Source: Nymphaea colorata
Lineage: Eukaryota
NCBI RefSeq assembly: GCF_008831285.2
Contig: NC_045138.2
Coordinates: 16,864,001-16,928,000, forward strand
Reading direction: 5' to 3'
DNA: 64,000 nucleotides
In this document: positions 7,165 through 63,812 of the stretch, one piece after another
Position numbering within the stretch: the first letter of the stretch is position 1
Layout of the letters: every line of letters begins with the position of its first letter
Notes under the pieces: generated by a model
The model's input: the letters and a program-made list of their open reading frames with translations, nothing else
Databases searched by the model: none
What the model was told of the DNA's origin: nothing
Made by a program: the position numbers and the translations under genes

Positions 7165-7254
7165 TGTTAAGTTCTAAACCTCATTTTACAGATAATAGGA
7201 CGACTTATAATTGGGTTGAATTTGAGATGAAGAACTGGCGATATGCCTTATAGC

Positions 7255-28321: not shown

Positions 28322-28363
<42 letters not shown>

Positions 28364-35167: not shown

Positions 35168-35280
35168 ATGGCGACAACAATCCAAGGGAAGGTTAGAACA
35201 TCATGTACCCAGGTCATGGTGGTTGCCCTACTCGTCTTCCTCCTTTCTGCCTCCTCCATGGCCGAAGGCTGCAAAGGTAG

Positions 35281-35324
<44 letters not shown>

Positions 35325-36204
35325 CCTTCCGTTTGTGGCTACTCAAGAGAGAAAGGAAAATAACATTAACAATAACATTAACATAAGTCCAACAAAAAGT
35401 TGAACTTGAAAAAGATTACATCTACAAATCAGCTCTCAATTCGTGTATGAGGTTGAAGGTACCAGTAGTTCCCCATAGGTTACGGGAAATTAACCAAACG
35501 TCATACAAAATGGAGGAAGCCATCCGTTCAACTGAAACCGCCTCATTTCTATAAATAATGTCATTTCTAGAGTTCCAGATGACCCACCAAAACGTAAAGA
35601 GCCAAATTCTCCAAATGGTGCATCATTTCTTTTTGTTTCTCACTCTAGTTGGTCCATGGAGCAGGTCCCAAACCAACAGTTTGAGGCTTTTTAGCTCTAA
35701 ATTTTAGCATGTCCTTAGGAAACCATATTGAGTTCTTTGCTCTTAAATCTGTCAGCACGTAACATATCACATCGCCACAGAGCCACAAAACAGCCAGTAT
35801 ATCAGACTGCAAGCCTTCTACGTTTATGAACTGAATATTAGAGTTGCATATTGCTACGTTGATCAGATTCTGTATCATGCGTGATCAAGATCCGGGTTTG
35901 TTTCTAAAGTTGCACTAAAGCGGAGACTATTGGCAACTATATGTACATAGACTGACAGTTCTTGCTATGACCAACTGCGTTCTTCTTTGAATTGATCGAT
36001 TTTGTAGGGAAGAATTCATGGCCGGAGCTGGTGGGCAGGGATGGATCGACGGCCGAAGCCATCATCAAAGCCGAGAATCCATATGTGAAGATTGTCGACA
36101 TAGTGCCGGAAGGCTCTTTCGTTATTCAAGACTTCCGCTGTGACCGGGTCTTCGTCTGGGTTAAGCCCAACAACACCATCTACCTTACCCCGAAAATCGG
36201 GTAA
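35168..36204 (+). CDS. Potato inhibitor I family (I13/PR-6) serine protease inhibitor #1, 101 aa with signal peptide
   Basis: Exon1 35168-35276 (ends GCK-G, phase 1), exon2 36008-36204 GKNSWPELVG...EGSFVIQDFRCDRVFVWV...TPKIG*. Confidence 0.92.
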
Positions 36205-37810: not shown

Positions 37811-37901
<91 letters not shown>

Positions 37902-37965
37902 ATACATTAAAAATTGCCCTTTAGACACCTTACTTCATCTATATGATACAATAATACATTAAAAA

Positions 37966-38595
37966 TAGAACATGTTTGGGTTGGTAACTTGAGAGCCAAT
38001 GCCCTGGACAGTGTACCTGGCCGTTCCACCAGGCTCTGTATGGGCTGCAGACCAGGCTGCTGGTGGCACCAAAATGGTGATGTGGGTGTCGACGGCATGA
38101 TCATCAACATTGCTAGCATGTTGGCTGACATCGTCACCAACCCCTACAAGAGTGGCCACTTCCAAGGGACACCTACTGTTCCTCTAGAGGCAATGCCGGC
38201 CTGTGTAGAAATATACGACAACCGCATAAGCTTGGATAAGCGTTCTTGCCGTGTATCCCTGCACAGGCCGATGCTGCCTCTAGCGAAGCACTAGTCATTC
38301 CTTGAAAGTAGGCGCTCTTGTAGGGATTGGTGTCCATACCAGGCAACATGCTAGCAATGTTGATGATCATTCCGTCGACACCCACATCACCATTTTGGCG
38401 CCACCAGCAGCCTGGTCTGCAGCCCATGCAGAGGCTAGTGGAATGGCCAGGCGCACTGTCCAGGGAATTGGTTCTCAGAGTTAGCAACCCAAACATGTGC
38501 TAACTTTTCACCGTTAGTCAACAGGAGGGCAGAGTCATGGAGGCTGCAACCGCTAATGCAGAATCCCTCCACTGCAACATCCTTGGATGCGAGTG
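37966..38595. pseudogene. EXORDIUM/PHI-1-derived inverted repeat A (arms ~37966-38220 and ~38246-38502)
   Basis: Both strands encode frameshifted [21 protein letters not shown]...[19 protein letters not shown]....TNP....FQG....PLEA..AC. Arms are reverse complements around a ~25-30 nt loop. Confidence 0.92.
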
Positions 38596-39222
38596 ATGTC
38601 GTTTTAATCAATAAATTAAAATAGTGTCCTTTCAGTAAAAAGATGACAATGTGGCATACCATGCCTATTTGGATGATGGACCTTGAGCGATGCAAAATAT
38701 TGATGTCATATCATGATTTAGCTTGCAGATTTTGTTTAATTTGAATGCATGGTAGTAAGGCATTTGTCTGTGAGCATTGGAGTTAGTATTTTCATTGGGA
38801 GAACAGCTATTAGAGAAGCATTCGTCAAGCAAAGAAAACAAAGGAAAGAGTGGGACGAAGAGAAATACTTTAACTAGCATTCTAGCTAAATCACAAAAGC
38901 AAGGAGAGGAAACTTTGTTGGTTAAAGAAGGCCGATTCTGATCCAATTTATAGTAGAGAAATGGGGTCAGTCTAGAAACTAGAGATACCTTCACAAGGAA
39001 GGAAATTGAACCAAATGAAGCAATTGTGGATGTGAAACAATCAATCCATTTTCTTTTTGCAGGTTTATTGCCTTATTATACATTAATTTTGATTCATGCA
39101 CCATATATAGGATTAGATTGGTAGCTAAGTTGAAGAGATCCTTCCATATATGTCCACGTCCAATATCTATAGAGGAAACAAATAAGATACTTATATGTTG
39201 ATTTCTCATGGCATTTTCCTTG
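38596..39222 (-). promoter_or_regulatory. Repeated leader/promoter cassette upstream (minus strand) of hairpin A
   Basis: Homologous to 41095-41885, 52325-53135 and 63450-63812. Minus-strand CTATAAAT at 38953-38946; putative GT-AG intron 38868-38629. The repeat is certain; promoter function is inferred. Confidence 0.5.
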
Positions 39223-40367
39223 TAACTCAAACTCAAACTCATTTATAACTTGATTTTAACTCGATCTCGAGCTCAACTCCTGTATTAAACGAGTCGACCT
39301 CAGGTGAAGTTTTCACAAACAAGTTCGAGTAGAGCCTCAGTCATTTTACATCTCTAAAATCAGGGTTAAACTTAAAAGACTATCAGGTAGAAGAAGATCA
39401 GCGGGTCGATATTCAATGTGTAATGACTCCGAACGACTTAATGGAGGAAGAAGCTGGAAAGTTGATGAAAGAAAAAGAATGTTTGGCAGCTGCCAACAAT
39501 GTGTAACTTTTATAGTTGTCTAGAACGGCTTGGTGGATCCGATTCCTAATAGCTCGGAAATATGTGAATTCAAATAAAAATAAGTGTTCAAGTAGACACT
39601 GGGATCCTATTTAAATTATTGCAACCGTATAAAATTTAGATGTGCATTTTGAGATGGGTATTAAAATAGCAAGTACTTCAGTTGAAATTTACTTATGTTG
39701 GATTGTAAACGGTGGTTTAAGTATGCTATGGTTCTAATTTGTAGTTGGTCAACTACACTGAACTCGTGGAGGTCATGGACTACTGCAATTATTTGTGGAT
39801 GGTATGAAATCATGTTACTTGTTTTTGTATGTCCAGTACTTAGATGCAGTCGATGTTGATAAATGCATAAACTGTGTGTTGCAAGATCAAGTCACGACCA
39901 TTCTCTTGTTTCTTCTTTTAGTTAACAGATATCTTAGATTGTTGTTTAACTGGATTGGATTGCATTTGGTTTCATGTTTTAATGGAAGAGGTGTTGTAGC
40001 TTCATTTTTTTACGTATTGGATGCTTCTTGCTTAGGTTTAAACCTCTGTAGTTTGTTGTTTTTAAAGATCATCTTTCAATTTGTATTCACGTGAAATGGA
40101 AGGAGAACGAAAAAAACAACTTCTAACGGTCAGGAAAAAAAGTCATTCATGTATTGTACCATGTGCACAAAAAACAGTTAATTTTACCTTGTAAAAAACT
40201 ATCATGTGCATCAAACACAGTTAATTTTACCATGTAAAAAACTACTATGTCATTAAACAGGGCCTCAAATTGGAAGAGGGAAAATTTTCATCCTTTATTT
40301 TTTTCCAGCATTCTTTTTCATAGTAAATTTATCACGATAAACACTTTCCTATCATCAAACGGGGCTT

Positions 40368-41092
40368 AGATGACAAGTATTCAACGGACAACACACTCAA
40401 AAGGGCACAAACAGGGAAGCTGGCTGCCAAGGCCGCCACCATTAACGGCATCACACTTGTGCTCACTGGTAGCTCTGAGAACCAATGCCCTAAACAATGC
40501 GCCGGGCTGTTCCACCAGCCTCTGTATGGGCTGCAGACCAGGCTGCTGGTGGCGCCAAAATGGTGATGTGGGTGTCGACGGAATGATCATCAACATTGCT
40601 AGCATGTTGGCTGACATCGTCACAAACCCCTACAAAAGCGGCCACTTCCAAGGGACAACTATTGTTCCTCTAGAGGCAATGCCGGCCTGTGTAGAGATAT
40701 ACGACAACTACCCCGCATAAGCTTGGATAAGTGTTCTTTCCGTGTATCCCTGCACAGGCCGATGCTGCCTCTAGAGAAACACTAGTCATTCCTTGGATGT
40801 TGGCGCTCTTGTAGGGATTGGTGGCGATACCAGGCAACATGCTAGCAATGTTGATGATCATTCAGTCGACACCCACATCACCATTTTGGCGCCACCAGCA
40901 GCCTGGTCTGCAGCCCATACAGAGGCTGGTGGAATGGCCAGGCGCACTGTCCAGGGCATTGGTTCTCAGAGTTAGCAACCCAAACATGTGCTAACTTTTC
41001 ACCATTAGTCAACAGGGGAGCAGAGTCATGGACGCTGCAACTGCTAATGCAGAATCCGTCCACTGCAACATTCTTGAATGTGAGCACAAAGA
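40368..41092. pseudogene. EXORDIUM/PHI-1-derived inverted repeat B (arms ~40468-40703 and ~40741-40975)
   Basis: Plus arm begins with DDKYS..TLKR...KLAAKAATINGITLVLT-like sequence and lacks ~105 nt. Minus arm encodes VAVDGFCISSC..HDS...[23 protein letters not shown]. Loop ~37 nt. Confidence 0.92.
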
Positions 41093-41094
41093 GT

Positions 41095-41885
41095 GATGGT
41101 CGTTCTAATCAATAAATTGAACAAGTGTCCTTTTAGTAAAAAGATGACAATGTGGCAAAATATGTGAATTTAGATGGTGGGTGTTGATGGATGAAAATAT
41201 TGATGCCATAACATGATTTAGCTTGCAGATTTTGTTTGATTTAAATGCATAAGGTATATGGCTATGAGCGTTGGAGTTTAGAATTTTCATTGGGAGGTAA
41301 GGTGTCAGAGAAGCATTAGTCAAGCAAAGAAAACAAAAGAAAGAGTGGGACAAAGAGAAATACTTAACTAGCATTCTACCTAAATCACAAAAGCATGAAG
41401 AGGAAACTTTGTTGGGTAAAGAAGGCCGATTGTGATCCAATTTATAGTAGAGAAATGGGGTCAATCTAGAAACTAGAGGTACCTTCACAAAGAAGGAAAT
41501 TGAACCAAATGAAGCAATTGTGGATGTGAAACAATCAATCCATTTTCTTTTTGCAGGTTTATTGCCTTATTATACATTAATTTTGATTCATGCACCATAT
41601 ATAGGATAAGATTGGTGGCTAAGTTGAAGAGATCCTTCCATATATGTCGACGTCCAATATCTACTGAGGAAACAAATAAGATACTTATATGTTGATTTCT
41701 CATGGCATCTTCCTTCTAAAGAAGATTTAAGTGCACAACCAAGGATTTATGAAGTTCAGAGAAGGCCTTAACATGCAGGCAGCTGGTCAATGGCTTCAAA
41801 TCCAACTGTAACCCCTTTCAAAGTAGAGCCTCATCTTGCTTGCCTAGGTACTTCACACTTAGGTAGCGCTTGGCAGCACTTGGAA
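41095..41885 (-). promoter_or_regulatory. Repeated leader/promoter cassette upstream (minus strand) of hairpin B
   Basis: TATAAAT minus 41446-41440; putative intron 41363-41130. Confidence 0.5.
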
Positions 41886-41958
41886 TAAGCATAAATGCCT
41901 TCTCCAAAATGTGAGGGGGTACCATGGCCCCTGCTAGCCTCCCCTTCTGTCAGCCAAT

Positions 41959-41997
<39 letters not shown>

Positions 41998-42085
41998 ATG
42001 ATGCTGGGTTTGCACTTAATAAGGACAGAGAATCTAAGGTGGTCTTGCACCCGAATGTCTTCAGCTTTTTCATTGAATCCGGCGC

Positions 42086-42175
42086 TCATAAATTAGCTTG
42101 AAACTGGGTTTTATGTAATAATATAACGCTAATACTTAATGAATAAATGAGCCTTAGTGGCATGATTATGCTTTA
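42086..42175 (+). pseudogene. Orphan 3'-UTR remnant of a potato inhibitor I gene
   Basis: ctcataaattagcttgaa..ttttatgtaataa..taatgaataaatgagccttagtggcatgattatgcttta aligns with the 3' UTRs at ~59270-59366 and ~54760-54805. No coding exon in front. Confidence 0.65.
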
Positions 42176-42522
42176 TTAGATCAGCAAAATCAGAAAATCA
42201 ATAAAATTTAGCAGAAACAAATAATTAACAAAGGAGGACAATAATTGAAGCAAAGAAAAAGAATTATTGATTGAAGGTGCTGATCTTCTTAAGAAATGAT
42301 ATTATCTGAATTAAGATATAGTTGAGATCCCAGTTCAGGGAAAAAGGAAATTAAAAAAGAAAAAAAGAAAAAGAAGATTGAACATTGTCACATGTCCCAT
42401 GATGAAAGGATGACAGCAACCTGCAAATTATTGTCAAGAAAAATAAAAGCATAAAGAAGAGGTGCTGAATTAGGAAAGGAAAACACCTAAGTCCAGTTGA
42501 GATACATGAGGGCTGATGTGGA

Positions 42523-42716
42523 CTTGGGCGGAGTCAAGTTAGGGCCCGTATGGGCTGTGGTTTCACCTCAATTTTTTTTAAAAAAAATTACATATAAATT
42601 TTAAAAATATTCATTTGTTTTATATAAAAATTTTGAAGAACGATATTTCGGTTCTAGTCAAAATTTAAAAACTTTAATTCAGTTCGCCTCCTGAAAAATT
42701 TCTCACTCTGCCCCTG
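42523..42716. mobile_element. hAT-type MITE (CAGGGGCGGAG-type TIR); related relics at ~3588-3753, ~8500-8660, ~63822-64000
   Basis: Ends cttgggcggag / ctctgcccctg; 8-bp TSD gatgtgga at 42515-42522 and 42717-42724. Confidence 0.7.
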
Positions 42717-44662
42717 GATGTGGACGACTGCCCTCGCAGGCGACTCCAGTGCCCCTTAGCTAAAAAAATCTTTGCTCCACCATTGCCAAAGTCCTATCTA
42801 GCAAGTCCCTGTGAAGACTGAAAAAAAAGGAGGAGGTGGGAGGAAATACTAAATTAACCACTGTGAGTTTCTATCATGAAGAATAAGTGGATGCCTTCTA
42901 AAACAAGTTCCTGAATGGATCCGGCCACATGATGCCGTGCTGATACCCAACATTTTACTTTTAAATCTGAAACAAATTGAGCCCAATCCTAAATCAGTTA
43001 ATGTTTAATTTAAGATTCAAGTTGTTATTGACTTCAATAATATTTCACCGTTACAAAAAAAAAAAAAAAATGTTAACGAAATATAGATATATGTGGATCT
43101 GTCTTTTCTGTTTCATTGACAAGATTAAATCTCGGTATTTTTTGTTCATAATGACACAAACTATCACAGAAAGTAAATGGTTGGCACAATAGATGTGGTT
43201 CATATTTTGGGTGAGCAAGAGGGAATCCCACTATCCCAGCGAGAGGCCAAAGTCCTCTCTCCATTCCCCTTTCTCCTGCTTTATCTAGAGTTGTTTCAAG
43301 ACTTGGGTGGACTTACGATACACTCTTCCACTCGATTGTTGTGCATGTCATATAGTTTGATGTCTAAATGAGTCAAGCATCCATAAGCATCCATGAGAAT
43401 CGAGTTGATGACACATTAACAGCACAACGCTCAAGCCAACCATTTATGCTATGCCCCTGTGGGTTCATATTTAACATGTCATGGTTCAAACAAAACATGA
43501 ATGATCTGAGTTCCTTAGACATATATATATATAGAGAGAGAGAGAGAAAGAGAGAGAGAGATATGAAACGAACTGAATTAAATGAAACCAATGTACAAAA
43601 AGTGTATAAAGATACCACCAACTCAAGTGGAGACACTATAAGGCAGCAACACATTCATCAAATCATGATAAGTGGTTATCCCTTATGATGAAATAAACAT
43701 CAGTGAAAACCATGTATTCAAGTATTGAATGATTGCATGCTGCATTCCAAAAAAAAAAATATCATTTCTAACAGTCCAAATCCACAACCAAAGTCCAAAC
43801 AGCCAGACCTTCTAGAGACGTCTCCACCATTTAGATTTTAAGAATATGCTTTGGCGGAAATGTCTCCACCTTTTAGATTTACAAATATGCTTTGGACCAA
43901 ATAATAAATTTCTAGCCAACGACCAAGTACATACTGTTGGTGGAGAGAGACAAAAAGAGAGAGAATAAATTTCTAGCGAAGGTCCAAGTACACAATGTCG
44001 GTGGAGAGAGAGAGAGAGTAGCATTGAGACATTAAATCCAACAAAATGTTGAAAAGAAGAACACTTACATCTAAGACTTAACTGTTGCAAAGACAGACTA
44101 CCATTACTCCATAAGTTACTAGAAATCAACCAGACCATATAAAATGGGTGATGCAATATACAACCCCGTTCGTATAGCAACTAATCCACTTAAAAAGTAA
44201 AGTAAACAACTAAATTCTCCAAATGATACTGTCACATTTAGAACAACTAACAACTTTATAATGAAATGAAAGGGAAAAAACGAAAAAGGTTCATCACTTA
44301 TCAATAAGTTTGGAGATAAGGTTGAGGGAAAAGTTCAGAGGCGGCCGACAAGACAGGGAGGTATGGAGGCAGAGTAGGGCGGCGGCCAACGTGACAGAGT
44401 GGTTAGTGCCTTCGCCGCTGTGAAGGGAGAGGAAATCTCAAGGTTCATCTCTCTCTCTCCCTCAGTAACATTCAAACACGGAGGCTGATGTACAGTCAAT
44501 ATTGCAGCAAGGCGGGGAGCTGCTTGCCAGGTACTCAGCTGCCCTCCATCTATAAATCAACCAACCCACCACTCCATTGCTGCATTGCCTGTAGTTGAAT
44601 CGAAACCCCCAACTCCATTGTTGTAGCTCCGATCGCCCACAGAGACAGGGAAAGAGAAAGCG

Positions 44663-45310
44663 ATGGCAGCCACAATCCAAACCCGAGTCATGGGGATTGC
44701 CCTGCTCTTCTTCTTCCTCCTTTCTGCCACTTCCATTGCCCAGGCCGCCACCTGCAAAGGTATTGTACTCTCTCTCTTGCAACCTTATTTTCTTCAGCCG
44801 GTCGGCCTACAGAAGAAAACCAACAGTTTGGGCCTTTTGGACTTGTCTAAAAAACTTAATCTGCACTTTAAGAAACCATCATGAATTCTTTGCTCTTTAA
44901 GTTTCTTAGGAGAGAACAGTGAGCATATTAGAATACCGCATCGCTTCGAATGTGACATTTATGAACTATTCATGAATTCATAGTTGCATCTTCGTCGTCT
45001 GCAAGATCATGTCCAAAGTTGCAGTAGAGAGAGAGACGTATTGGCAACTATGAATTATTTAAGTCACTATTATGATCAACTTCTTCTTTGAATTGAATTG
45101 ATGGGTTTTGTAGGGAAGAGCGCATGGCCGGAGCTGGTGGGCAAGGATGGGTCGACTGCGGAAGCCATCATCAAAGCGGAGAACCCTCGTGTGAACTTTG
45201 TCTTCCCCGTCACAGAAGGCTCTACTGTAAGGAAGAATTTCGACTGTCGACGAGTGTTTGTCTGGATTAAGCCCAACGGCAAGATTTACCTTGTTCCGAG
45301 ACTCGGATAG
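44663..45310 (+). CDS. Potato inhibitor I family protease inhibitor #2, 97 aa
   Basis: Exon1 44663-44759, exon2 45114-45310 GKSAWPELVG...EGSTVRKNFDCRRVFVWI...VPRLG*. TATAAAT 44551-44557. Confidence 0.92.
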
Positions 45311-47587
45311 ATCACCCGTTAGCCTTGCTCTCAGGATCTGCTTATTGTCAAATATGTCAGCCTCCTGTACTAGTAATTAAGGCTCTTGCAATGTAATATA
45401 ATAAAGCTCGATGCTAATGAGAAATAAGCCTACATATTGCCAATATGATGAAGTACAATCTTGTTCTTGCTGGCAAAGTTTGTAGTTTTCCTTTTTCCTT
45501 TTTCATTCCTTACCTGAAGGCAATGGAATTTCATGATCAAGAGCAGCAACTTAAATGAAATGGGACGATAATGGAGTCCTGTGGGTTAACTTTCAATCCA
45601 GATACAGATTCAAGTTGCCCAACTACAGATTACAGTCCTCTAGAACGATCGGATTCACGGTGATCAATTAAGATGGTTGGTTTCGAATCTGATCTCAGGA
45701 AAACAAAATTGACAAGGCCGCAAATTACAAGTCAGGTTTCTGACTACCCATAAGTCGTGGCCCAATGTCCACTTTTACTTTTATGTCAAGTTCCTCCATG
45801 AATTCCTGGATGAATCCAGAACCTGCCATTATATACACGATATTTTGCTGATTTCATACAGAAATCAAGTTGAGTCAAATACCGATTCGGTTAACGTTCT
45901 AAGCTCAAGTTGTTATTTTCATCGTTATAAAACAAGGTCAGGCTATTTATTAAACAAATATATTACGTTTGGATCTATATGCTTTGTTTTCGCTCAAAAA
46001 TGAACTCGTGCTGTTAATTTGTTGTTCATGTTTATACATTACATGGTTCACATGCAAGATGTTGGCATAATGCTACTCATATTTTACAAGAAAGCATGGA
46101 CCCGATACCCAGCGCGAGTAGGGCTCGGGCCTGGAAAAAAGACACCAGGCTGACTCGGGTGGACTTCATAATTTTTTTAATATTTATGTAATTAATTTTT
46201 ATATCTAATTACAATATTTTATTATAATTAATTATATTTATATAATATTTTATATTAAAAATATATTTTTTAATTTAAGTGGACCGAACCCCATCCCATG
46301 TTTCGAGTATCGGCCAGCCTGATGTCCAGGCGTAATTGTTTAATTGTGAGAATATGATGTTTTCTTTCTTCGTCAAATGTCACATTGCCAAAATGGTCTA
46401 AGGATTACGTTTCCTTTAGAAGTAATCTATTTGACCTTAATAAAGTTTCTGGTCCGGCGCTTCTGCAACAAGGTAAGGTGATTAAGCTTTCCCTTTCAAT
46501 CCGGTGTTCAACGTCGTTGTAACTCAAGTGAGTTGATTCTGTTCAACGTCGTTGTAACTCTTATCTTGTAATAATTTGTATAGAAGGTAACCAAGACCAT
46601 GACATTTACTCAGATTTATATATTTAAGCTCTATCCTTGATATATATATATATATAAGAGAGAAAAAGTTAAGCTCTTAAGAATGTGACATTTAAAACAA
46701 GTCATAACTTTAAGGACGGTCACATCCAGAACAAGTCAAGACTTTATAATGAAAGTCATAACATTTAAATGAAAAGAAAAAAAAAAGAAAGGTTCACCTC
46801 TGATCCATAGGTCTGGAGATAAAGTTAACGGACAAATTTGAGGGGATGCCAGGATGATGTGAGAGAGCCGATAAAATGGAAATATAAAACAAAATTTGGG
46901 GACAAGAGGTCTTTAATTACAAAAACAATCCGCAAAGAACAAAATTACGCAAAAAACACAAGCAGAGGAACAAATATACAATACAATGCACAGAAAAATA
47001 AGAGAAAAGAGGAAAGGCGAAACGGCACAGTCACCCAACCACAGTCAGGCGGCGGCGCTTTAACCGAATGGCGAACTGGATATCTCTTTGCACAAGACGA
47101 GCCACAAAATCTGGTGAAGAGAAGGTGCCCCTGAAGACCATGTTGTTGTGCTCCATCCAAATGCGCCACATTGAAAAAAACGGAATTGTGGGGGCGTCAC
47201 ATTGAGAGAGAGAGAGAGAGATTTATAATGAAAAAAACAAAAGCGTCACATTGAAGATAAAATTGTGGGGGCGGCGACAGGGAGGTGCGGGAGGCCAAGT
47301 ATGGAGCGACCCACATGACAGAGAGGTTGGAGGCCTTCGCCGGTGTGAACGTAGAGGAAATCTCAAAATTCATATCTCTCTCTCTCAAAAGAGCATTCAA
47401 ACATGGAGGATGAGGTACGGTCAATGTTGCAGCAAGGCGGTGGCTGGTTGCCAGGGACTCAGCTGCCCTCCATCTATAAATCAACCAACGCACCACTCCA
47501 TTGCCACATTGCCTGTTGTTGAATCGAAACCCCTCAACTCCATTGCTGTAGTTCCGATCGCCCACAGAGACAGGGAGAGTGAAAGCG

Positions 47588-48227
47588 ATGGCAACCACAA
47601 TCCAAGCCCGAGTCATGGGGACTGCCCTGCTCTTCTTCTTCCTCCTTTCTGCCTCTTCCATTGCCCAAGCCGCCACCTGCAAAGGTATGTAGACTCTCTC
47701 TCTCTTGAAAACTTATTTCCTTCAGCCGGTCGGCCTACAGAAGAAAACCAACTGTTTGGGCCTTCTGGTCTTCTCCCAAAAAACTTAACATGCACACTAA
47801 CAAACCATCATGAATTCGTTGCTCTTATGTTTCCTAAGATAGAAGAACAGTGAGCATATTAGAGTACTGCATCGCTTCGAACGTGACATTTACTTGCATC
47901 TTCCTCGTCTGCAATATCATGTCCAAAGTTGCGGCAGAGCGAAGACGTGTTGGCAACTATGAACTATTCTAGTTACTGTTATGACCAACCAACTGTGTTC
48001 TTCTTTGAATTGAATTGATGGGTTTTGTAGGGAAGAGTGCATGGCCGGAGCTGGTAGGCAAGGATGGATCGACTGCAGAAGCCATCATAAAAGCTGAGAA
48101 CCACCGTGTGAACTTTGTCTTCACCGTCCAAGAAGGATCCTCTGTAATCCAGAATTTTGACTGCCGACGGGTGTTTGTCTGGGTTAACACACACGGCAAG
48201 ATTTACCTTGTTCAGAGACTGGGGTAG
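47588..48227 (+). CDS. Potato inhibitor I family protease inhibitor #3, 97 aa (recent tandem paralog of #2)
   Basis: Exon1 47588-47684 (MATTIQARVMGTALLFFFLLSASSIAQAATCK), exon2 48031-48227 ...EGSSVIQNFDCRRVFVWV...VQRLG*. TATAAAT 47475-47481. Promoter, intron and UTR are alignable with #2. Confidence 0.92.
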
Positions 48228-48989
48228 ATCACTCTTTACTCTTCCTCTCAAGATGTGCTTATAGTTAAAATAAGTGAGCCCGTTGTACTGGTAATTAAGT
48301 CTCTTGCAATGTAATAATAAAGCTTGATGCTAAATATGAGAAATAAGCCTACACACTGGCAATATTATTGATTATAATCTTAAGATTCTTGCTGGCAAAA
48401 TTTATAGTTTTTCTTTTACTTTTTAATTTATTACCTCAAGGCAGTGGGATTTCATGATCAAGTGCCGCAACTTAATCGGACGAGGTTTCAGTCCTGTGAA
48501 ATTAATCTGCGCCCTCATGATTTCATGGCTTAAGATCCAACATTTTCATGCAACGTTGCTCAGATATTTCTCGTCGGGTTCAGTTCTGGATTCAGATCTG
48601 AACGGATGCAGATGCAAAGCTGCAACTGCTATCAAATTGACAAGGCGCGCTCTTTCATCATTAATTAACCGTTCATGCATATTGATCAATTAAGCTTAGT
48701 AAACAGAGATTAATTCGTTTTGATTTTCAACAGAGATTAATAAATTAAGTGGGATTACTAATTGGCGGAGGGTGGTCTGAAAAAATCTTGAAATGAGGAG
48801 ACACACTCTAGATGGTCGGAGCTGCATTCAGCAAATGTGCTCGGAAAAAAATGTAAAGTGAATTCGAGGGTGACGATTCAATGTGCATTTTTTTTTTTGG
48901 CGCAGAGGGAAACGCACATATAACCGGCTTCTGATCAACTACGGAATTCACTGTCCATGTAGAAATGGCTTGACTCAGACCGTGTTGTG

Positions 48990-49592
48990 CATTAATCCAG
49001 TTTTCAACTACTTCCTGAGCTCTCTTAGCTACCAGGAGAAGAGCCCTTCGGTGCCCTCTTAGAGGTAGAAGGTCGTATGCTTAGGCAAGGCCGGCCAGGA
49101 TCCGCCATGGCGGTGCTGCGAAAGCATAACTAGATGACAAGTACTCACCGGACAACTCACTCAAACGGGCACAAATGGGGAAGCTGGCTACCAAGGCCGC
49201 CACCGTCTCTTCTGCTCATTTCTAAGGATGTGTCAATGGAGGGATTCGGTATGAGCACCTGCGGCCTCCATGACTCTGCTCCCCTGCTACCTATTGCAGA
49301 AAGATTCGCATATGTTTGGGTTGCTAACTCTGAGAGGCAATGCCCTGGACAGTGCGCCTGACCGTTCCACCAGCCTCTGTATGGGCTGCAGACCAGGCTG
49401 CAGGTGGTGCCAAAATGGTGATGTGGGTGTCGACGGAATGATCATCAATATTGCTAGCATGTTGCCTGGTATCGTCACCAATCCCTACAAGAGCGTCCAC
49501 TTCCAAGGAATGACTAGTGCTTCTCTAGAGGCAGCATCGGCCTGTGCAGGGATACACGGCAAGAACGCTTATGCCGGGTAGTTGTCGTATAT
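48990..49592 (+). pseudogene. Longest EXORDIUM/PHI-1 pseudogene remnant; its 3' half forms the outer left arm of hairpin C
   Basis: [87 protein letters not shown]. Stops and frameshifts; 3' end missing. Confidence 0.88.
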
Positions 49593-51334
49593 CCAAACAA
49601 ATTCTTGAATCATGTTCCCTTTCAATTTAATCATACTTGCGACAAGTTGCCAATGCCATTCACCAGTGAAGGACCACCTTCTATACGACGGTTAAATTTT
49701 TTTAGCATGGAATACATGGCCATTAAATGTTGTGGAGCACTCAAGGTTAGTTTCTCTGCCAAGTTCGCTTGTGAGGAGCTTCTTGGAACTATCCTAGAAA
49801 GCCTTGTGGTTTTATGTACCCCAACTGAATATACGATCCGAGTCTAATGTTTGATCTTATCCAGAATCTACCCATATCTTTCTTAAATATGAAGTCTTTC
49901 ATACTATTTATCTTGAATTTTTTGCAATACAATGAAATTGACATAACTTTATACGTTCAAATACGACTGTGAACTATTCTCTTAAACGAATACGACTGTG
50001 AACTATTCTCTTAAACAAGTGAAAGACATTTTTACAGTCGTATTTGAACGATGATGACATTATCTGCAGGCTTGTGGACCATCGCTTTGCTTCTCGATTA
50101 CCAGAGCAAGGCAGACAGAGAGTTTTGCCATGACAAGAAGTGTCTGCTCAAAATCGGTGCATTTCTCGGCCTCATCTTCCCCAATAAACTCGGGGCCGAT
50201 CTTGAACTCATGTTGGCATATAAATCTCCTTTGCTGATACAATTTTCAAAGGAACGCCCGTAATGTCTCGAAGCCTCACCAACAACAAAATATTAATTAT
50301 TTCAGTGCTGACCATTTGCCGGGAAAATCTTAACAAACATATTTTATGACTATAGCAGATTGAATTATTTGCTTATAGGACAGTTCAAATCTGCGGAATG
50401 CTGAATGTTGCGGGATAATTAACGCTATGTTTGGATGAGGCCGACAAATGCACCGATTTTGAGCAAACACTTCTTGTCATGGCAAAACTCTCTGTCTGCC
50501 TTGCTCTGGTAATCGAGAAGCAAAGCGATGGACCACAAGCCTGCAGAAAATGTCATCATCGTTCAAATACGACTGTAAAAATGTCTTTCACTTGTTTAAG
50601 AGAATAGTTCACAGTCGTATTCGTTTAAGAGAACAGTTCACAGTCGCATTTGAACGTATAAAGTTATGTCAATTTCATTGTATTGCAAAAAAATCATGAT
50701 AAATAGTATGGAAGACTTCATATTTAACAAAGATATGGGTAGATTCTGGATAAGATCAAACATTAGACTCGGATCGTATATTCAGTTGGGGTACATAAAA
50801 CCACAGGGCTTTCCAGGACAGTTCAAAGAAGCTCCTCACAAGCGAACTTGGCAGAGAAACTAACCTTGAGTGCTCCACAACATTTAATGGCCATGTGTTC
50901 CATGCTAAAAAAATTTAACCGTTGTATAGAAGGTGGTCCTTCACTGGCGAATGGCAACTTGTCGCAAGTATGATTAAATTGAAAGGGAACAGGATTCAAG
51001 AATTTGTTTGGATATACGACAACTACATTGAAAGGGAACAGGATTCAAGAATTTGTTTGGATATACGACAACTACCCCGCATAAGCATTCTTGCCGTGTA
51101 TGCCGGCTGCCTCTAGAGAAGCACTAGTCATTCCTTGGAAGTAGGCGCTCTTGTAGGGATTGGTGACGATACCAGGCAACATGCTAGCAATATTGATGAT
51201 CATTCTGTCGACACCCACATCACCATTTTGGCGCCAGCAGCAGCCCGGTCTGCAGCCCATACAGAGGCTGGTGGAATGGCCAGGCACACTATCCAGGGCA
51301 TTGCCTCTCAGAGTCAAGCAACCCAAACATGTGC
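49308..51334. repeat. Long inverted repeat C: arms 49308-50176 and 50434-51334, loop 50177-50433
   Basis: Continuous reverse-complement match over ~870 bp with scattered substitutions. Outer ~280 bp is EXO-derived, inner ~590 bp is unrelated sequence. 49-bp tandem duplication in the right arm (~50978-51075). Confidence 0.97.
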
Positions 51335-51526
51335 TATTCTTAATGTATTCTTATATCATATAGATGAAGTAAGGTATCTAAAGGCTATTTTTTTAATGTA
51401 TTCTTATTGCAACCGAGTAGGGCGATTTAAGGCGAGTCAAGATCGAGATTCACAGAGTCGGGCCGAGTTAGGAGAGAGTCAGGTTTTACGTCACCCAAAC
51501 CGGCAATTGACGTACCTCTTTCACTT

Positions 51527-52322
51527 AAAATACTGTTTGAGGAAGAAGATTTGCATTTGTTTGCACAGAGAGTTGAGGCCCATGAAAAATCCAATTGGGC
51601 AAAACAGAGTTGCCGCCACGGTTAACGGCATGAGGCTTCACCCTTGTGCCCACATCTAAGGACGTCGCAGTCGAGGGATTCTGCATGAGCAGCTGCGGCC
51701 TCCATGACTCCGCTCCCCTGCTGCCTATTGCTGAAAGATTCGCATATGTTTGGGTTGCTAATCCCGAGAGCCAGTGCCCTGGACAGTGTGCCTGGCCATT
51801 CCACCAGCCTCTGCATCGGCTGCAGACCAGGCTGCTGGTGGCACCAAATGGTGATGTGGGTGTCGATGGAATGATCAACATTGCCAGCAAGTTGCTTGAC
51901 ATCGTCACCAACCCCGACCAGAGCGGCTACTTCCAAGGGATGGCCACTGCTCCTCTAGAGGCAATGTCGGCCTGTCTTATCTCCCTGCACAGGCCGACGT
52001 TGCCTCTAGAGGAGCAATAGACGTCCCTTGGAAGTAGCCGCTCTCGTCGGCATTGGTGACGGTGCCGGCCAACGTGCTAGCCATGTTGATGACCATTCCA
52101 TCAATACCCACATCAACATTTGGCGCCACCAGGGTCTGCGGCCCATACAGAGGCTGGTGGAATGGCCAGGCGCACTGTCCAGGGCATTGGTTCTCAGAGC
52201 TAGCAGCCCAAACATGTGCTAACTTTTCACCATTAGTCAACAGGAGGGCAGAGTCATGGAGGCTGCAACCGCTAATGCAGAATCCCTCGACTGCCACATC
52301 CTTGATGCGGGCACAAGAGTGA
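51527..52322. pseudogene. EXORDIUM/PHI-1-derived inverted repeat D (arms ~51638-51975 and 51989-52322, 13-nt loop)
   Basis: Plus ORF 51646-52020 and minus ORF 52297-51977 both encode the VAVEGFC..C..HDS...[12 protein letters not shown]...DVG.DGM...GYFQG...APLEA.SAC segment. Neither has the EXO N- or C-terminus. Confidence 0.93.
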
Positions 52323-52324
52323 CG

Positions 52325-53135
52325 TCTTTTTAATCAATAAATTAAAATAGTGTCCTTTCAGTAAAAAGAAGACAATTGTGGCACACCATGTTAATTTGGA
52401 GAGGATGGGCCTTGAGAGATGCAAAATATTGATGTCATATCATGATTTAGCTTGCAGATTTTGTTTAATTTGAATGCATGGTAGTAAGGCATATGTCTAT
52501 GAGCATTGGAGTTAGAATTTTCATTGGGAGAACAGGTATTAGAGAAGCATTCGTCAAGCAAAGAAAATAAAAGAAAGAGTGGGACATAGAGAAATACTTA
52601 ACATTCTAGCTAAGTCATAAAAGCGAGAAGAGGAAACTTTGTTGGGTAAAGAAGGCCGATTATGATCTAATTTATAGTAGAGAAATTTGCTCAATCTAGA
52701 AACTATAGATACCCTCGCAAGGAAGGAAACTGAACCAAATGAAGCAATTGTGGATGTCAAACAATCAATTCATTTTCTTTTTGCAGGTTTATTGCCTTAT
52801 TATACATTAATTTTGATTCCTGCACCATATATAGGATAAGGATTGGTAGCTAAGTTGAACAGATCCTTCTATATATGTCCTCCTCCAATATTTATAGTGG
52901 AAACAAATAAAATACTAGTAATGTTTTAATTCCATTTATATGTTGGTTTCTCATGGCATCTTTCTTTTAGAAGAAGACTGAAGTACACAACCAAGGATTT
53001 ATGAAGTTCAGAAAAGGCCTTAACAAGCAGGCAGCTGGTCAATGGTTTCAAATCCAACTGTAACCCCTTTCAAAGCAAAACCTTTGCTTGCCTAGGCAAG
53101 GCTTGACACTACTTAGGTAGTGTTTGGCAGCACCA
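52325..53135 (-). promoter_or_regulatory. Repeated leader/promoter cassette upstream (minus strand) of hairpin D
   Basis: TATAAAT minus 52676-52670; putative intron 52597-52355. Confidence 0.5.
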
Positions 53136-53990
53136 GGATTAAAATCCTAAGATCAAAATCTCAAGATTTTAATCCAGGATGTGTTTGCTTTCCTAGACTT
53201 TGTTATAATGGATGTCTATCTAGTGTCTGTTAAATGTTTGGAAAAAAAATTAAAACGTTATATAAGTTTGATTCTTTGTCGGTCATAAAAGTCTATTCTC
53301 CAAATCTCTCTTTCATTGTTTTGGGATCTAACACATGAAGGCAACCTTTCCTTTCCTCCAGTTTATCACCGAACCCGTTATGTGCACCTCATTGTGGACT
53401 AGAATTTGTGCACAGGAGAGTACGATGACGAAAATACCTCCAGTGAAAGGGGAAAAAAAAAACTTTTATGTAAAAAAGAATTGTGAAAAAGTAAAAAAAA
53501 AAAAGTCTAAATACCTATTATCTGTATAAAAAATTTCACTACACCCTCCACCCACTTTGGTGTATACTTATATTTATCACCGGGCAGGGCTCTCTCTCTC
53601 TCTCCCCATCTCTCTCCCTCTAATTTATGAGCTCTCACTGATATGTGAGAGAAAGTAGGAGAGCCACCCCTTCATCATCTGCAACCTTATCATCAGCGGC
53701 CAGTCGTCACCGGTATGAACATAAAGAAATTAGACAAAAAAAGCACCAAAAGGAACTGATGAAAAACGACGATGCGAACTACCAAGAAAGTCGCACGAAA
53801 GAAATTAATTAATGGGCCCAAATCTCTCTCTTCCCTTCAGTTCAAGCATGGAGGCGCGCGCACGGTCAACATTCAAAAGTGGTCGGCGAAAGGTAGGCAA
53901 GTTAAGCAGCTGGTTCGAGTTATAAATCCCCTTAACCAGGAAGCCCTTGCTCTACGTAGCTGAATGCAGGAGGCGGAGAGGGAGAGAGAA

Positions 53991-54275
53991 ATGGCAACAA
54001 GCAAAGTTGTCTTATCAGGTGTCCAAGTCATGGCGGTACTGGCCGTACTCTTCTTCCTACTTTCAGGATCATCCATGGCTGCCGACTTTTGCCAAGGTAT
54101 ACATATAGTTCAACTACTCAATAGATGGTATCAATTGCTCACGCCAATGTACATCTGGTTCCGCCAATATATATACTTATATATATATAGTGATGGTAAG
54201 CCATAAAATGCATCTCTTTGCATGCTGTGATTCATCTATCACCATCAATATTATCCATATACATAAGGATTTTGT

Positions 54276-54326
<51 letters not shown>

Positions 54327-54692
54327 ATAGTAAGCCATAAACTGTATCTCTTTGCATGCTGTGATTCATCTATCACCATCAATATTATCTGTATACATAA
54401 GGATTTTGGAAAAAGAACTTGCAGCGTAAGATTACTGATCTCAATTGTAGCATGTTGCTCCTGTTCTTCTTACTAAGAGTATGCTCCTATCGCAGGCAAG
54501 CAGTCATGGCCGGAGCTGGTTGGACAGGCCGGAGAAGTTGCTGAGCCCGTGATCAAAGGGCAAAACCCTTTTGTGAAGGATGTTATTATTGTCCGGAACG
54601 ACACAAAGCTAATTGAAAATTTCCGCTGCGATCGGGTCTGGATCTTTACTAACCCTGACGGCACCATTAGCAGGATCCCAACGGTTGGTTAG
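53991..54692 (+). CDS. Potato inhibitor I family protease inhibitor #4, 100 aa
   Basis: Exon1 53991-54096, exon2 54496-54692 GKQSWPELVGQAGEVAEPVIKGQNPFVKDVIIVRNDTKLIENFRCDRVWIFTNPDGTISRIPTVG* (not in ORF track). TATAAAT 53921-53927. Confidence 0.92.
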
Positions 54693-57499: not shown

Positions 57500-59227
57500 A
57501 TGGCAACAAGAATGCAAGGGAAGGTGAGGCCGCCATCATGTGCCCTGCTCATGGGGGTGGCCCTGCTTTTCTTCTTCCTCCTTTCCGCCTCCACCATGGC
57601 CACCGACTGCAAAGGTATATTTTAATGTGTCTTCTTTGTTCGAACTTTAGGCCGTGTTTGTTTGCCTCGGATTTCATGGGGGAGATCCAAAGTAAAACAA
57701 AGGACTGATCTCAGCAAACCCACGAGAGGGCAGCAATCCACGAATTAGAGATCAGACACCCCTGCGTCTGATCTCTGTCGTGGATCTCACATCCCCACGA
57801 GTCGTTAAGCTTGGGCTCTCCTGCCATGCTTGTCGACCAACCTCCTGTCGGTGGCTCTCTCTCCACCAAATAACCAGTGATAGAAAAACGATCTGCGGGT
57901 TTAAAAAAGAAAAAATTGGAGCCCTTGGCACTGCAAGGGTTTGAGAAAACATGTTTTAGAAGAGAGAAAGGAAGAGACGTCGATTCTCAGACTGCCGGAA
58001 ACACACCTGAGAGCTCCGAACCTCACCCTTTTTTAAAAAAAAAAATGATTACTGCCAAGGGTTTCAAAAAAATAAAATACCTCGGTGTAACCCTCAACAC
58101 TGCTGAGTGTTTCAGAAATTTCAAGGATAGCGCAGAGACGGATGGAGATGACGGCTGGCTGGAAGATCTACCCTCCTCCCCTGCCGGAGAAAAGTACCTG
58201 CGACTTTATCTTTCTTGATCTGCACGCCTAGGAGGCGGGAAAAACAAGAAACAACAACCTTGACTACCATGGCGGTCAAGGTCAAGATAGATAGAAAAAG
58301 GGGACGGGAGAGAGAGAAAAAGAGTCCGCAGTCGACCATGAACTTGCAGTCGAGTATCAAGCTACGGTCAACAAAAGCTTGGCTTTTAAGACCCTCCGAT
58401 TTTAGATCAATCCTGGATCTAATATCCATGGGCATCAAATCCGACCTTTGTGTTTGATGATTTGCAATTCCGATTCAACAATAAAAATTTCAAAATCGTA
58501 GTACCTCTTCAAACTGTAGTGGAATCAAAATTCCTGATTTTAGTTTCTTTAATTCCAGAAACAAAATAGATCGTTTGTTTTATAATTCTAATTTCTTAAA
58601 AATTCAACATTTTGACTCTCAAAATTCTGTATATCAAACACCCCCAATGCCCAGACATGCATCGGCACATGCATGTAAAATCTTGACTTGTTGTGGAACC
58701 TGTCAATTTTGATTATGAGCACTAGTTATATAATTTTAAATTTTTAGAGGCACTGTACAGAAATGAAAAAAAGGGTTCATGAAATTTCAATATGAAAATA
58801 AACACTTTTTGTGGGTTTGTGTGGCCAATTGCCCACACCTTCCTCCGCCCCTGCCCTTAAACATTTTTCCCTGTATCTTCACCAAACATGCTTGACATTT
58901 TCATGCATTGCATGTCCTTAATGCATTAATTCATTGGCCTTATGTACATGGCTATATTCTCCTCACGCATTTTATATTAATAGAGCTACTTGTTGTTTTC
59001 TGCTTATAGATTAACTGTGTCTTAACACAGGGAAGGAGTCATGGCCGGAACTGGCGGGCATGGATGGACAGGTCGCTCCCCCCATTATCAAAGCTCAGAA
59101 TCCTTATGTTACGGATGTTCCCATTGTGAAAGAAGGCACCGTGGTTATTTTGAACTTCCTCTGCAACCGTGTTCGCGTCTGGGTTAAGCCCAACGGCACC
59201 ATCTACGAGCCACCCACCATTGGCTAG
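57500..59227 (+). CDS. Potato inhibitor I family protease inhibitor #5, 103 aa
   Basis: Exon1 57500-57614 (MATRMQGKVRPPSCALLMGVALLFFFLLSASTMATDCK), exon2 59031-59227 GKESWPELAG...EGTVVILNFLCNRVRVWVKPNGTIYEPPTIG*. 1416-nt GT-AG intron; TATAAAG 57402-57408. Confidence 0.9.
57650..58645. mobile_element. One or two adjacent Tourist/PIF-like insertions in the intron of inhibitor #5
   Basis: tta|GGCCGTGTTTG at 57650. GTGTTTGAT ~58450 pairs with ATCAAACACCCCC ~58633-58645. GC-richer interior; TSDs not clean. Confidence 0.45.
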
Positions 59228-62135: not shown

Positions 62136-62139
62136 CTAT

Positions 62140-62425
62140 CAGTTGATTGTCATCTCTGAAGATGGTTTTGTGAGTCTTCTGACTGACAGGGAAAACCATA
62201 AAGATGATTTTTGACTTCCAACTGATGAAAATATGGCTTTGTGGGTCTTTTGACTGACAGTGGATGCAACAAAGATGATCTACAACATTCCACCGATGAA
62301 AATCAGTTTGCTCAGGTGATATTGTCCCATCTTCCTACCGTAATGATGTTCCCTGTGTTACTCATTCTGATTGTCAATTGATTGACATCTTTGAAGATGG
62401 TTTTGTGAGTCTTTTAACTGATAGT
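62140..62425 (+). repeat. Three imperfect direct repeats immediately after the MUSTANG truncation
   Basis: gatggttttgtgagtctt..actgac/tag at ~62161, ~62233 and ~62396. Confidence 0.7.
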
Positions 62426-63449
62426 TGAAGCATGAAATAGTGACTGCACTGGTCAAACTCAAGTGGGATAAGTAGTGCTGAGAAGACAAAGCCATCTTAC
62501 TCCAGCCACTTGGGTGACTGATTTGGTCTTGTCTCTTTCTTCCATGTCCATTGCTAAGTATTGGTTATTTTCAGTTGTCATTCACCAAATACAGAAGGAT
62601 ATAGTGACATTGTCCACTGAGCCCGCCAAACTCTGTTCATAAAGTTCTTACAATTAGTCAAATTGAATTGTTCAAGCTTTCCAAATCTAAATGAAACATT
62701 GTCCATATAATAAACGTTGGAGGTAAATAAGTTCATCAAGATTGGATAATAGTTGGACAATTTAGATGTTTAATGCATATTTGAATATTTTGACACTCAT
62801 TTGCTTTTCTTTTAATGTGTAATATGCTTTTGACTTCTATTGGAAATGACTTATGTATGTAGATGAAGCAAAGACATTTAGAATTTTTTTCTTGTTCATA
62901 TATACAAAGGGTGATTCAAATCTGTCAAATGTTTGATTTTCTAGATGGCTATAAATTAAAAATCCATCTCTAAAAATATCATGAACCATTGATAAAAGCA
63001 TGATGAACCACTGTCACACTACAAACCACCGTTAATACTCTTGTGATGACTTCTGGTAACAATTTTTTTCTTTTAGCCATGCAACAACATTCAATAGATT
63101 TGAACTCTCTTATGTATGTACTATTTCACTTAATGTATAACATAAACACATATTCTTGGAGTAGAGCAGGGGCCTTAGTTGCCATGATTCATCTAAAATT
63201 GAGGCTTAGACCAAGGTATGCTTCATCCATATATTTAGTCAAAGACCAGTTTCTCTACCCAGGTCCTCCAACCCCCCTACCCCCTTTGTATGCAGCAAGG
63301 GCCTGTTAGCCACAACGCATATACGAAGAAGGGTCTGTTAGACATAGCTCAAAGACGAAGGAATGGAGTGATTATGTACCTCAAGTTTATATGTTTGAGT
63401 GGTGAAAAAATTCAATAAGAAAGCTACAATTTTGAAAATAAAAAATAGC

Positions 63450-63812
63450 TCATCGTTTTAATCAAACAATGGCAACTTTCAGTAAGAATATGACAATTTG
63501 GCAAAAGATGATGGGCCTTGAGGGATGCAACTATTGATATTATATCATGTTTTAGATTGTAGAGATTGCATGCATTGTGTAAAAGCACATATCCAAGAGA
63601 GTTCCGTTTGAGCTTTTCATTGGGAGAAAAAGTGCAAGCGAAGCATTCATCATGCGATAATTCCAATTACCAAGAGTACAATTGAAACGAAACAAAAGAA
63701 AAAATGAAGCGAATAGAAATACCTCACTAGCTTTATGAATAACAGATCCTGAACAGATGCTTCTCCATATCATATAATAAGAGGAAACTTTGTTGTGTAA
63801 AGAAGGGTTATG
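63450..63812 (-). repeat. Diverged fourth copy of the hairpin leader cassette, without hairpin or TATA
   Basis: Shares ctttcagtaa, gggccttgag.gatgcaa, ttttcattgggaga, gaagcattc, gaaatac and gaggaaactttgttg..taaagaagg with the three cassettes. Confidence 0.7.

What the first reader, a model, noticed from the sequence alone, without database searches (positions are those of the whole stretch)
37966..53135. Family of four EXORDIUM/PHI-1-derived fold-back loci interleaved with protease-inhibitor genes: candidate hairpin-RNA / proto-MIRNA system
Seen: EXO/PHI-1 coding sequence occurs eight times in 15 kb, never as an intact gene and always as tail-to-tail pairs. The pairs are A (~250-bp arms, ~25-30 nt loop), B (~235-bp arms, ~37 nt loop), C (~870-bp arms) and D (~335-bp arms, 13-nt loop). 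All stems cover the most conserved part of the family ([27 protein letters not shown]). Established: inverted duplication of a target gene is the accepted origin of young plant MIRNA and endogenous IR-siRNA loci, and EXO/EXL genes act in brassinosteroid-linked cell expansion. Inference: these loci give dsRNA diced into small RNAs that silence intact EXO-like genes in trans, and they were amplified together with the inhibitor array. I know of no described EXO-targeting hairpin family, but could not search.
Basis: partly seen in the sequence, partly recalled or inferred. Interest (0 to 1): 0.88.

Follow-up and report, generated by a model that had tools for sequence, protein, structure and literature searches.

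The report
Water-lily EXORDIUM-derived hairpin cluster
A water-lily genome holds four broken, back-to-back copies of part of a cell-wall growth gene, descended from one old inverted duplication, and they likely make hairpin RNAs whose small RNAs could dampen the intact gene, though no RNA from them has been seen.

Summary
The four fold-backs are real (arms 237-870 bp, 84-94% paired). An independent contig bridges loop D exactly, and D-type junctions occur in five of seven runs laid, so they are not assembly artefacts. The window matches Nymphaea colorata; RefSeq's 'EXORDIUM-like 7' is a gene model stitched from loci C and D. All eight arms lie 10-14% from one intact PHI-1-like gene on another chromosome (88% identity seen directly, exact tracts over 30 nt). 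They diverged about neutrally and share rearrangements. This points to one inverted duplication, roughly 15-35 Myr old, then local copying and arm-to-arm conversion. Two thirds of stem C is not EXO. A conserved, TATA/splice-site-bearing element flanks A, B and D. No duplicated block joins a fold-back to an inhibitor gene, so co-amplification is not supported. No transcript or small RNA could be examined, and tests for selection on the stems were inconclusive. Best reading: gene-derived endogenous inverted-repeat siRNA loci (about 0.5), against silent decaying palindromes (about 0.35). New member of a known kind, directly testable with public N. colorata sRNA-seq.

The parts
37961..38221 (+). 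Fold-back A, left arm (EXO-sense on +); a chimera whose distal end and upstream flank are an inverted copy of C-right and its flank
38246..38602 (-). Fold-back A, right arm (paired to 38507; EXO homology continues to about 38602); loop 38222-38245
38603..39225 (.). Right flank of unit A, shared with B and D; non-EXO
39007..39112 (.). Most conserved flank element (3 variable columns of 100 among A/B/D). Holds a minus-strand TATA-box match at 39109 and a plus-strand 3' splice-site-like motif at 39049-39064. Candidate promoter or intron end; function inferred
40357..40703 (+). Fold-back B, left arm (EXO residues about 111-147, a 34-codon deletion, then about 182-262; paired part 40467-40703; near-perfect core 40510-40609)
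40741..41090 (-). Fold-back B, right arm (paired to 40977); loop 40704-40740 keeps a relic of the C-type non-EXO junction
41091..41888 (.). Right flank of unit B (conserved element about 41501-41606)
48990..49578 (+). Fold-back C, left EXO fragment, the longest (residues about 67-266; paired from 49301); proximal part re-copied from a right-type arm
49579..50176 (+). Non-EXO segment X, left arm of C (about 96-97% paired); source unidentified; a further diverged copy of its start is seen in three runs
50177..50433 (.). Loop of C
50434..51080 (-). Segment X, right arm of C (with a 49-nt tandem duplication at the EXO junction)
51081..51341 (-). Fold-back C, right EXO arm
51342..51407 (.). Short flank shared, inverted, with 37896-37960 upstream of A
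51586..51975 (+). Fold-back D, left arm (residues about 117-255; paired from 51633; no frameshift in the paired part)
51989..52327 (-). Fold-back D, right arm; loop 51976-51988 bridged by independent contigs
52328..53142 (.). Right flank of unit D (conserved element about 52731-52836)
35168..36204 (+). Potato inhibitor I family gene 1 (two exons); neighbour, not part of the fold-back units
44663..45310 (+). Potato inhibitor I family gene 2
47588..48227 (+). Potato inhibitor I family gene 3 (tandem copy of gene 2; exon 2 86% identical)
53991..54692 (+). Potato inhibitor I family gene 4
57500..59227 (+). Potato inhibitor I family gene 5
63453..63806 (.). Older (68-70%) homologue of the A/B/D right flank, without an EXO fold-back next to it

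Best explanation
The four fold-backs are copies of one old inverted duplication of a PHI-1/EXORDIUM gene fragment that landed inside a protease-inhibitor array, and they likely act as hairpin-RNA (endogenous inverted-repeat siRNA) loci whose small RNAs would be able to dampen the intact parent gene in some tissue. Shown: fragment origin from one parent gene on another sequence, single ancestry, later local copying, arm-to-arm homogenisation, near-neutral decay, presence in several differently labelled organisms, and long near-exact matches to the parent. Inferred: Pol II transcription using the conserved flank element (strand open), folding into 240-870 bp stems, dicing by DCL2/3/4 into mixed 21/22/24-nt populations rather than one DCL1 miRNA, and partial silencing in trans by cleavage or RdDM.
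For: Stems and folding. Parent: a 1420-nt contig in run X1 matches B-left with 23 differences in 192 nt, lacks the frameshift and runs on into intact EXO codons. The same-length contig matches D-right with 20 differences and one 6-nt gap that restores the P0018 residues. P0018 = XP_031497745.1 lies on a 24.9-Mb sequence, the stitched model on a 44.6-Mb one. Against an inferred pre-duplication sequence (checked within 1-2 nt against those two direct counts), arms differ by 10-14%, with longest exact tracts of 24-58 nt and 48-108 21-mers per arm within one mismatch. The best-paired core of A and B (2 non-pairs in 84; 1 in 100) overlaps the motif that other N. colorata paralogues share. D-type loops are bridged by listed contigs in 5 of 7 runs laid (X1, X2, X4, X8, X15), and B- and C-type junctions appear in X6, X8 and X15. 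A 100-nt flank element is more conserved than the rest of the flank within the window (p=0.012). Across runs the distal flank differs by 3-5% against 8-10% for the proximal part (Fisher p 0.002, 0.02, 0.06). It carries TATA and splice-acceptor motifs in all three units. Precedent: endoIR siRNAs, Mu killer, poplar ARR17 repeats (passages).
Against: No G-U excess marks a transcribed strand (GU 46, AC 64 on +; p=0.10, loci not independent). D's arms are about as diverged from each other as neutral decay predicts. Scans for a window protected from change against the parent were mostly not significant (single arms p 0.03-0.83; the low pooled values use arms with shared ancestry). The perfect core is equally explained by gene conversion. 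CpG transitions are 2.6 times the rate at A/T sites, the footprint of methylated DNA. The parent is intact and conserved in N. thermarum (107 of 109 residues) and Victoria (97 of 109), so it is not permanently shut off. The flank's lower divergence may reflect base composition, collapsed paralogues in the contigs, or a function older than the fold-backs, since a homologue sits at 63453 without one.
Confidence: 0.5

Rival explanations
1. Silent, methylated pseudogene palindromes: the same origin, but no Pol II hairpin of consequence; at most Pol IV 24-nt siRNAs keep them silent, and conversion and rearrangement are by-products of palindrome instability.
For: Near-neutral codon pattern (25 of 28 pairwise dN/dS inside the simulated neutral range; within-locus pairs 0.50-0.83), CpG decay, no wobble asymmetry, no significant protected window, many lineage-specific rearrangements.
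Against: Retention of three junction types across several differently labelled organisms, and a conserved promoter- or splice-like element beside three units.
Confidence: 0.35
2. The repeats matter in cis: their 24-nt siRNAs and methylation tune chromatin and expression of the neighbouring protease-inhibitor genes, as proposed for Arabidopsis inverted repeats near genes.
For: Each fold-back lies 0.8-4 kb from an inhibitor gene; mechanism described in a passage of PMC10827316 citing Arce et al. 2023.
Against: No shared sequence between arms and inhibitor genes and no co-duplication; the conserved element sits on the fold-back units themselves.
Confidence: 0.06
3. Cargo of a non-autonomous mobile element (Pack-MULE, Helitron or retro-capture); the shared flank is the element's end.
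For: Several foreign fragments lie here in the same orientation (EXO, segment X, MuDR-type and eIF5A pieces), and the flank recurs next to the MuDR-eIF5A chimera.
Against: The outermost paired sequence is EXO coding DNA, not terminal inverted repeats, and no outer inverted repeat was found. The flank shows few contigs at 82% likeness, unlike the MITE-like palindrome at 53133-53178. This rival concerns origin and does not exclude siRNA output.
Confidence: 0.06
4. Two convergent, functional EXO paralogues were fused by a deletion between them.
For: Left and right arm types are distinct; three pairs have dN/dS of 0.30-0.31, two of them involving D-left.
Against: Both arm types are equally close to the one parent (72-79% residues, 10-14% nucleotides), share derived changes, and within-locus differences are spread over all codon positions. 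No intact EXO gene lies in the window.
Confidence: 0.02
5. A real protein-coding gene (RefSeq XP_031495123.1), or an assembly artefact.
For: The RefSeq model exists.
Against: The model joins an off-frame stretch, an antisense stretch of C-right and D-left read-through, and is alone in its cluster. Arms are 84-94%, not 100%, alike, and a 379-nt contig bridges loop D with no difference. Loops A, B and C were not shown bridged in X1 (tables cut).
Confidence: 0.01

Closest known systems
Endogenous inverted-repeat siRNA loci (endoIR; Arabidopsis IR71, maize Mu killer)
   Same: Long imperfect non-coding fold-backs of hundreds of base pairs, predicted substrates of DCL2/3/4 (definition from passages of PMC10827316).
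   Different: Derived from a host growth gene, four clustered copies, shared among several organisms (that review calls Arabidopsis endoIRs mostly transposon-derived and poorly conserved); siRNA output not shown here.
Target-gene inverted-duplication MIRNA precursors (Allen et al. 2004 model; NBS-LRR-derived MIR472/825/1885; Aha-miR217)
   Same: Both arms resemble one protein-coding gene, at its most conserved motif (passages).
   Different: Stems are long and still largely perfect in the core, with conversion restoring pairing; no single miRNA/miRNA* is known; the locus is away from the parent gene.
Poplar ARR17 partial inverted repeats
   Same: Translocated gene fragments in inverted orientation under relaxed constraint, able to act on an unlinked intact gene (passages of PMC9636151).
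   Different: There 24-nt siRNAs and target methylation are shown and the repeats are sex-linked; here the arms hold coding sequence only, no promoter of the parent, and no sex linkage is suggested.
Siren loci of ovules
   Same: N. colorata has 218 such loci (passages of bioRxiv 10.64898/2026.08.14.744852).
   Different: Those are Pol IV-type and enriched in hAT elements; the paper's main text has no mention of 'hairpin' or 'inverted'; overlap with this locus could not be checked.

Membership tests
PHI-1/EXORDIUM protein-coding gene | Phi_1 (PF04674) homology | tested here: met
PHI-1/EXORDIUM protein-coding gene | Complete ~300-aa ORF with signal peptide and C-terminus | tested here: not met
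   Residues about 67-266 at most; frameshift in 6 of 8 arms; stops
endoIR-siRNA locus | Long, non-coding inverted repeat able to form an extended imperfect hairpin | tested here: met
endoIR-siRNA locus | Pol II transcript through both arms | not testable with these tools
   No RNA holder listed; only motif and conservation hints
endoIR-siRNA locus | RDR-independent 21/22/24-nt siRNA populations from the stem | not testable with these tools
   No sRNA reads available
Target-inverted-duplication MIRNA / proto-MIRNA | Extended similarity of both arms to one coding gene | tested here: met
Target-inverted-duplication MIRNA / proto-MIRNA | Complementarity to the parent sufficient for targeting | tested here: met
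   88% direct identity; exact tracts 24-58 nt against the inferred parent; partly inferred
Target-inverted-duplication MIRNA / proto-MIRNA | Precisely excised miRNA/miRNA* duplex dominating reads | not testable with these tools
   No Rfam match at gathering scores; the 141 N. colorata miRNAs of ANAgdb are not in the supplement sheets listed
Target-inverted-duplication MIRNA / proto-MIRNA | Selection on pairing or on a guide sequence | tested here: inconclusive
Pack-MULE / foldback transposon | Outer terminal inverted repeats of element sequence, high copy number | tested here: not met
   Outermost paired DNA is EXO coding sequence; no outer repeat; contig depth is a weak guide to copy number
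Pack-MULE / foldback transposon | Target-site duplication and copies elsewhere in the genome | not testable with these tools
   No whole genome held

The most novel reading that the evidence does not exclude
A water-lily lineage has kept, for tens of millions of years, a clustered family of gene-derived hairpin RNAs in which arm-to-arm conversion keeps restoring perfect pairing over the most conserved EXO motif. This would hold them in the siRNA state instead of decaying into MIRNAs, so that they tune the PHI-1/EXO cell-wall family in trans, and locus C a second, unknown target.
Probability: 0.17. Interest if true: 0.7.

Novelty: new member of a known kind. Interest (0 to 1): 0.42.

Why it matters
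Intermediates of the inverted-duplication route to MIRNAs are rare (two cases in the A. halleri survey; passage), and the examples cited in the papers read are eudicots or maize. Here four related stems from one event sit side by side at different stages: D near neutral decay, A and B with a converted core, C freshly re-copied. That allows a direct test of how pairing sets Dicer choice and whether conversion stalls the siRNA-to-miRNA transition, in an early-diverging angiosperm with public sRNA data. If they act on PHI-1/EXO, they would touch cellulose synthesis and cell expansion (abstract; listing). It also flags a wrong RefSeq gene model.

Tried and rejected
No whole genome was held, so no genome-wide search for copies or targets. 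No RNA holder listed among 21 runs; this is no evidence on expression. Rfam: 0 matches at gathering scores in the whole window. Metagenome contigs: 0 exact matches to a 24-nt core motif. Segment X: no Pfam hit; 2 hits among 1.84 billion representatives, both repeat proteins judged spurious. A search for fold-back junction proteins in other Nymphaeaceae gave none among 71 hits (limited to 70-224 aa). G-U asymmetry: not significant. Protected-window scan: inconclusive. Arm tree: weak support (50-86%) because arms are mosaics. Co-duplication with inhibitors: 9 region pairs aligned on both strands; only a 90-nt inhibitor 3'-UTR remnant after B stood clearly above shuffles. Literature: 0 papers hold EXORDIUM + inverted repeat + small RNA; 4 hold EXORDIUM + miRNA + target + degradome, of which one was opened and lists a predicted apple novel miRNA for EXL3 (passage); 3 hold Nymphaea + sRNA-seq + miRNA; searches listed nothing on this locus (listings only; 20 of 24 shown). 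The Euryale genome paper had no EXO passage. PmiREN, miRBase and the ANAgdb miRNA pages could not be searched. The supplement of PMC9641971 was too large, and preprint supplements (SirenScan locus lists) were not seen; an existing annotation there cannot be excluded. Earlier scan notes: none relevant.
Full report
Observation. A pairs 220 of 261 columns across a 24-nt loop, B 206 of 237 across 37 nt, and D 284 of 336 across 13 nt. C spans 49301-50176 / 50434-51341 at about 94% outside gaps. A and D fold far below all shuffles (z -35 and -30), and nothing similar lies elsewhere in the window. All eight arms map to PHI-1/EXO proteins, and none is a complete gene. One correction matters: about two thirds of C's stem is a non-EXO segment, X, that I could not identify.

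Source and annotation. The protein search returned XP_031495123.1, 'EXORDIUM-like 7' of Nymphaea colorata. Its pieces match the window exactly or nearly so: 103 of 103 residues on C-left, an antisense stretch of C-right, and D-left. The window is therefore N. colorata or nearly identical to it. The model is a stitched artefact, alone in its cluster. The closest intact protein is P0018 (XP_031497745.1), on a 24.9-Mb sequence against 44.6 Mb for the stitched model, with orthologues in N. thermarum and Victoria.

Not an artefact. I laid 7 of the 21 runs listed, all DNA contigs. In X1 a 379-nt contig spans loop D with no difference. X2 (no difference, so possibly the same germplasm) and X4 (6 differences in 222 nt) also span it. 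In X8 and X15 single contigs run left arm, loop, right arm with the D-type junction. B-type loops lacking a 10-nt duplication appear in X8 and X15; the EXO-X junction of C appears in X6 and as a loose end in X8. No listed X1 piece bridged loops A, B or C, but those tables were cut (809 and 243 pieces not shown).

History. A 1420-nt X1 contig matches B-left with 23 differences in 192 nt, lacks the frameshift, and continues into intact EXO codons. Against D-right it shows 20 differences and a 6-nt gap that restores two P0018 residues. I take it to be the parent. A pre-duplication sequence inferred from the arms and P0018 reproduces these counts within 1-2 nt and puts all eight arms 10-14% away. 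With Ks 0.9 at 107 Ma (passages of PMC7015852) this gives 26-36 Myr. Methylated DNA mutates faster, so I use roughly 15-35 Myr. Differences between arms fall on all codon positions; 25 of 28 pairwise dN/dS values lie in the simulated neutral range, and three are slightly below it. Left and right arm types exist, but the arms are mosaics. One 1-nt insertion is in both arms of A, B and C and in neither arm of D. C-left switches from left type to right type towards the loop. A-left and its flank are an inverted copy of C-right. B's loop keeps a relic of X. This is one inverted duplication followed by tandem copying (units 88-93% alike), inversion and arm-to-arm conversion.

Inhibitors. Five potato-inhibitor-I genes surround the loci. 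No alignment joins an inhibitor gene to a fold-back unit, and 9 of 10 exon-2 pairs are 57-73% identical. The array is older, and the fold-backs were copied on their own inside it.

Could they work? Arms carry exact tracts of 24-58 nt and 48-108 21-mers within one mismatch of the inferred parent. The best-paired cores of A (2 non-pairs in 84, against 27 in 98 nearer the loop) and B (1 in 100, against 22 in 94; windows chosen after the fact) overlap the motif shared by other N. colorata paralogues. Small RNAs made here could therefore hit the parent and perhaps its relatives. A, B and D share a right flank whose most conserved 100 nt (3 variable columns; p=0.012) hold a minus-strand TATA match and the only strong plus-strand acceptor motifs in the 15 kb. 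Listed contigs of X8, X12 and X15 differ by 3-5% over the distal flank and 8-10% over the proximal part (pieces chosen from cut tables, runs not independent). C lacks this flank.

Against function. There is no G-U asymmetry (46 against 64). No window is convincingly protected from change. CpG decay is clear. The stems are no more conserved between A and B than the distal flank. Conversion alone explains the perfect cores. The flank has an older homologue at 63453 without a fold-back, so its conservation may predate these loci. The parent remains intact in three species.

Comparison. The anatomy fits endoIR siRNA loci and the Allen et al. inverted-duplication model (passages of PMC10827316, PMC9641971, PMC5026261 and bioRxiv 10.1101/2024.07.25.605110). 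The closest working analogue is the poplar ARR17 repeat (passages of PMC9636151). The sequence features of these classes are met; the defining RNA features could not be tested. My searches found no description of an EXO-derived hairpin. The N. colorata miRNA and siren-locus lists exist but were out of reach.

Verdict. A real and well-resolved case of a known kind, in a lineage and gene family where I found none described. Hairpin-siRNA loci about 0.5, silent palindromes about 0.35; a meaningful effect on EXO genes about 0.2. One mapping of public sRNA-seq would largely settle it. Interest 0.42.

Noticed in passing
window 60223-62430: MuDR/MULE-domain gene with a frameshift near 60720-60760 and a truncated end, fused directly to three tandem eIF-5A fragments (Pfam MULE, SWIM, DBD_Tnp_Mut, eIF-5a). 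It looks like a chimeric pseudogene; the label MUSTANG is recalled, not tested.
   Followed up: partly
window 63453-63806: 68-70% homologue of the fold-back right flank, cut by a repeat-like insertion; a loose end in run X8 suggests the homology resumes beyond the window edge.
   Followed up: partly
window 1-7687 and 11226-18949: 7.7-kb direct duplication at 97.8% identity; content not identified (two ORFs without Pfam hits).
   Followed up: no
window 21450-22007 (-): ORF resembling a small secreted peptide precursor with a signal-like stretch; no Pfam hit; family not tested.
   Followed up: no
window 27769-34184 (+): Multi-exon DEAD-box RNA helicase gene (Pfam DEAD on the first exon).
   Followed up: no
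window 42086-42175: Remnant of an inhibitor gene 3' UTR, closest to gene 5, showing a lost inhibitor copy.
   Followed up: partly
window 49270-52020: RefSeq model XP_031495123.1 is stitched across fold-backs C and D and should not count as an EXO gene.
   Followed up: yes
run X8 laid on window 41086: A contig joins the end of a right arm to sequence that precedes C-left in the window, so the cluster is arranged differently in that organism.
   Followed up: no
window 53133-53178: Short palindrome with many loose ends in four runs, likely a MITE inserted in D's flank.
   Followed up: no
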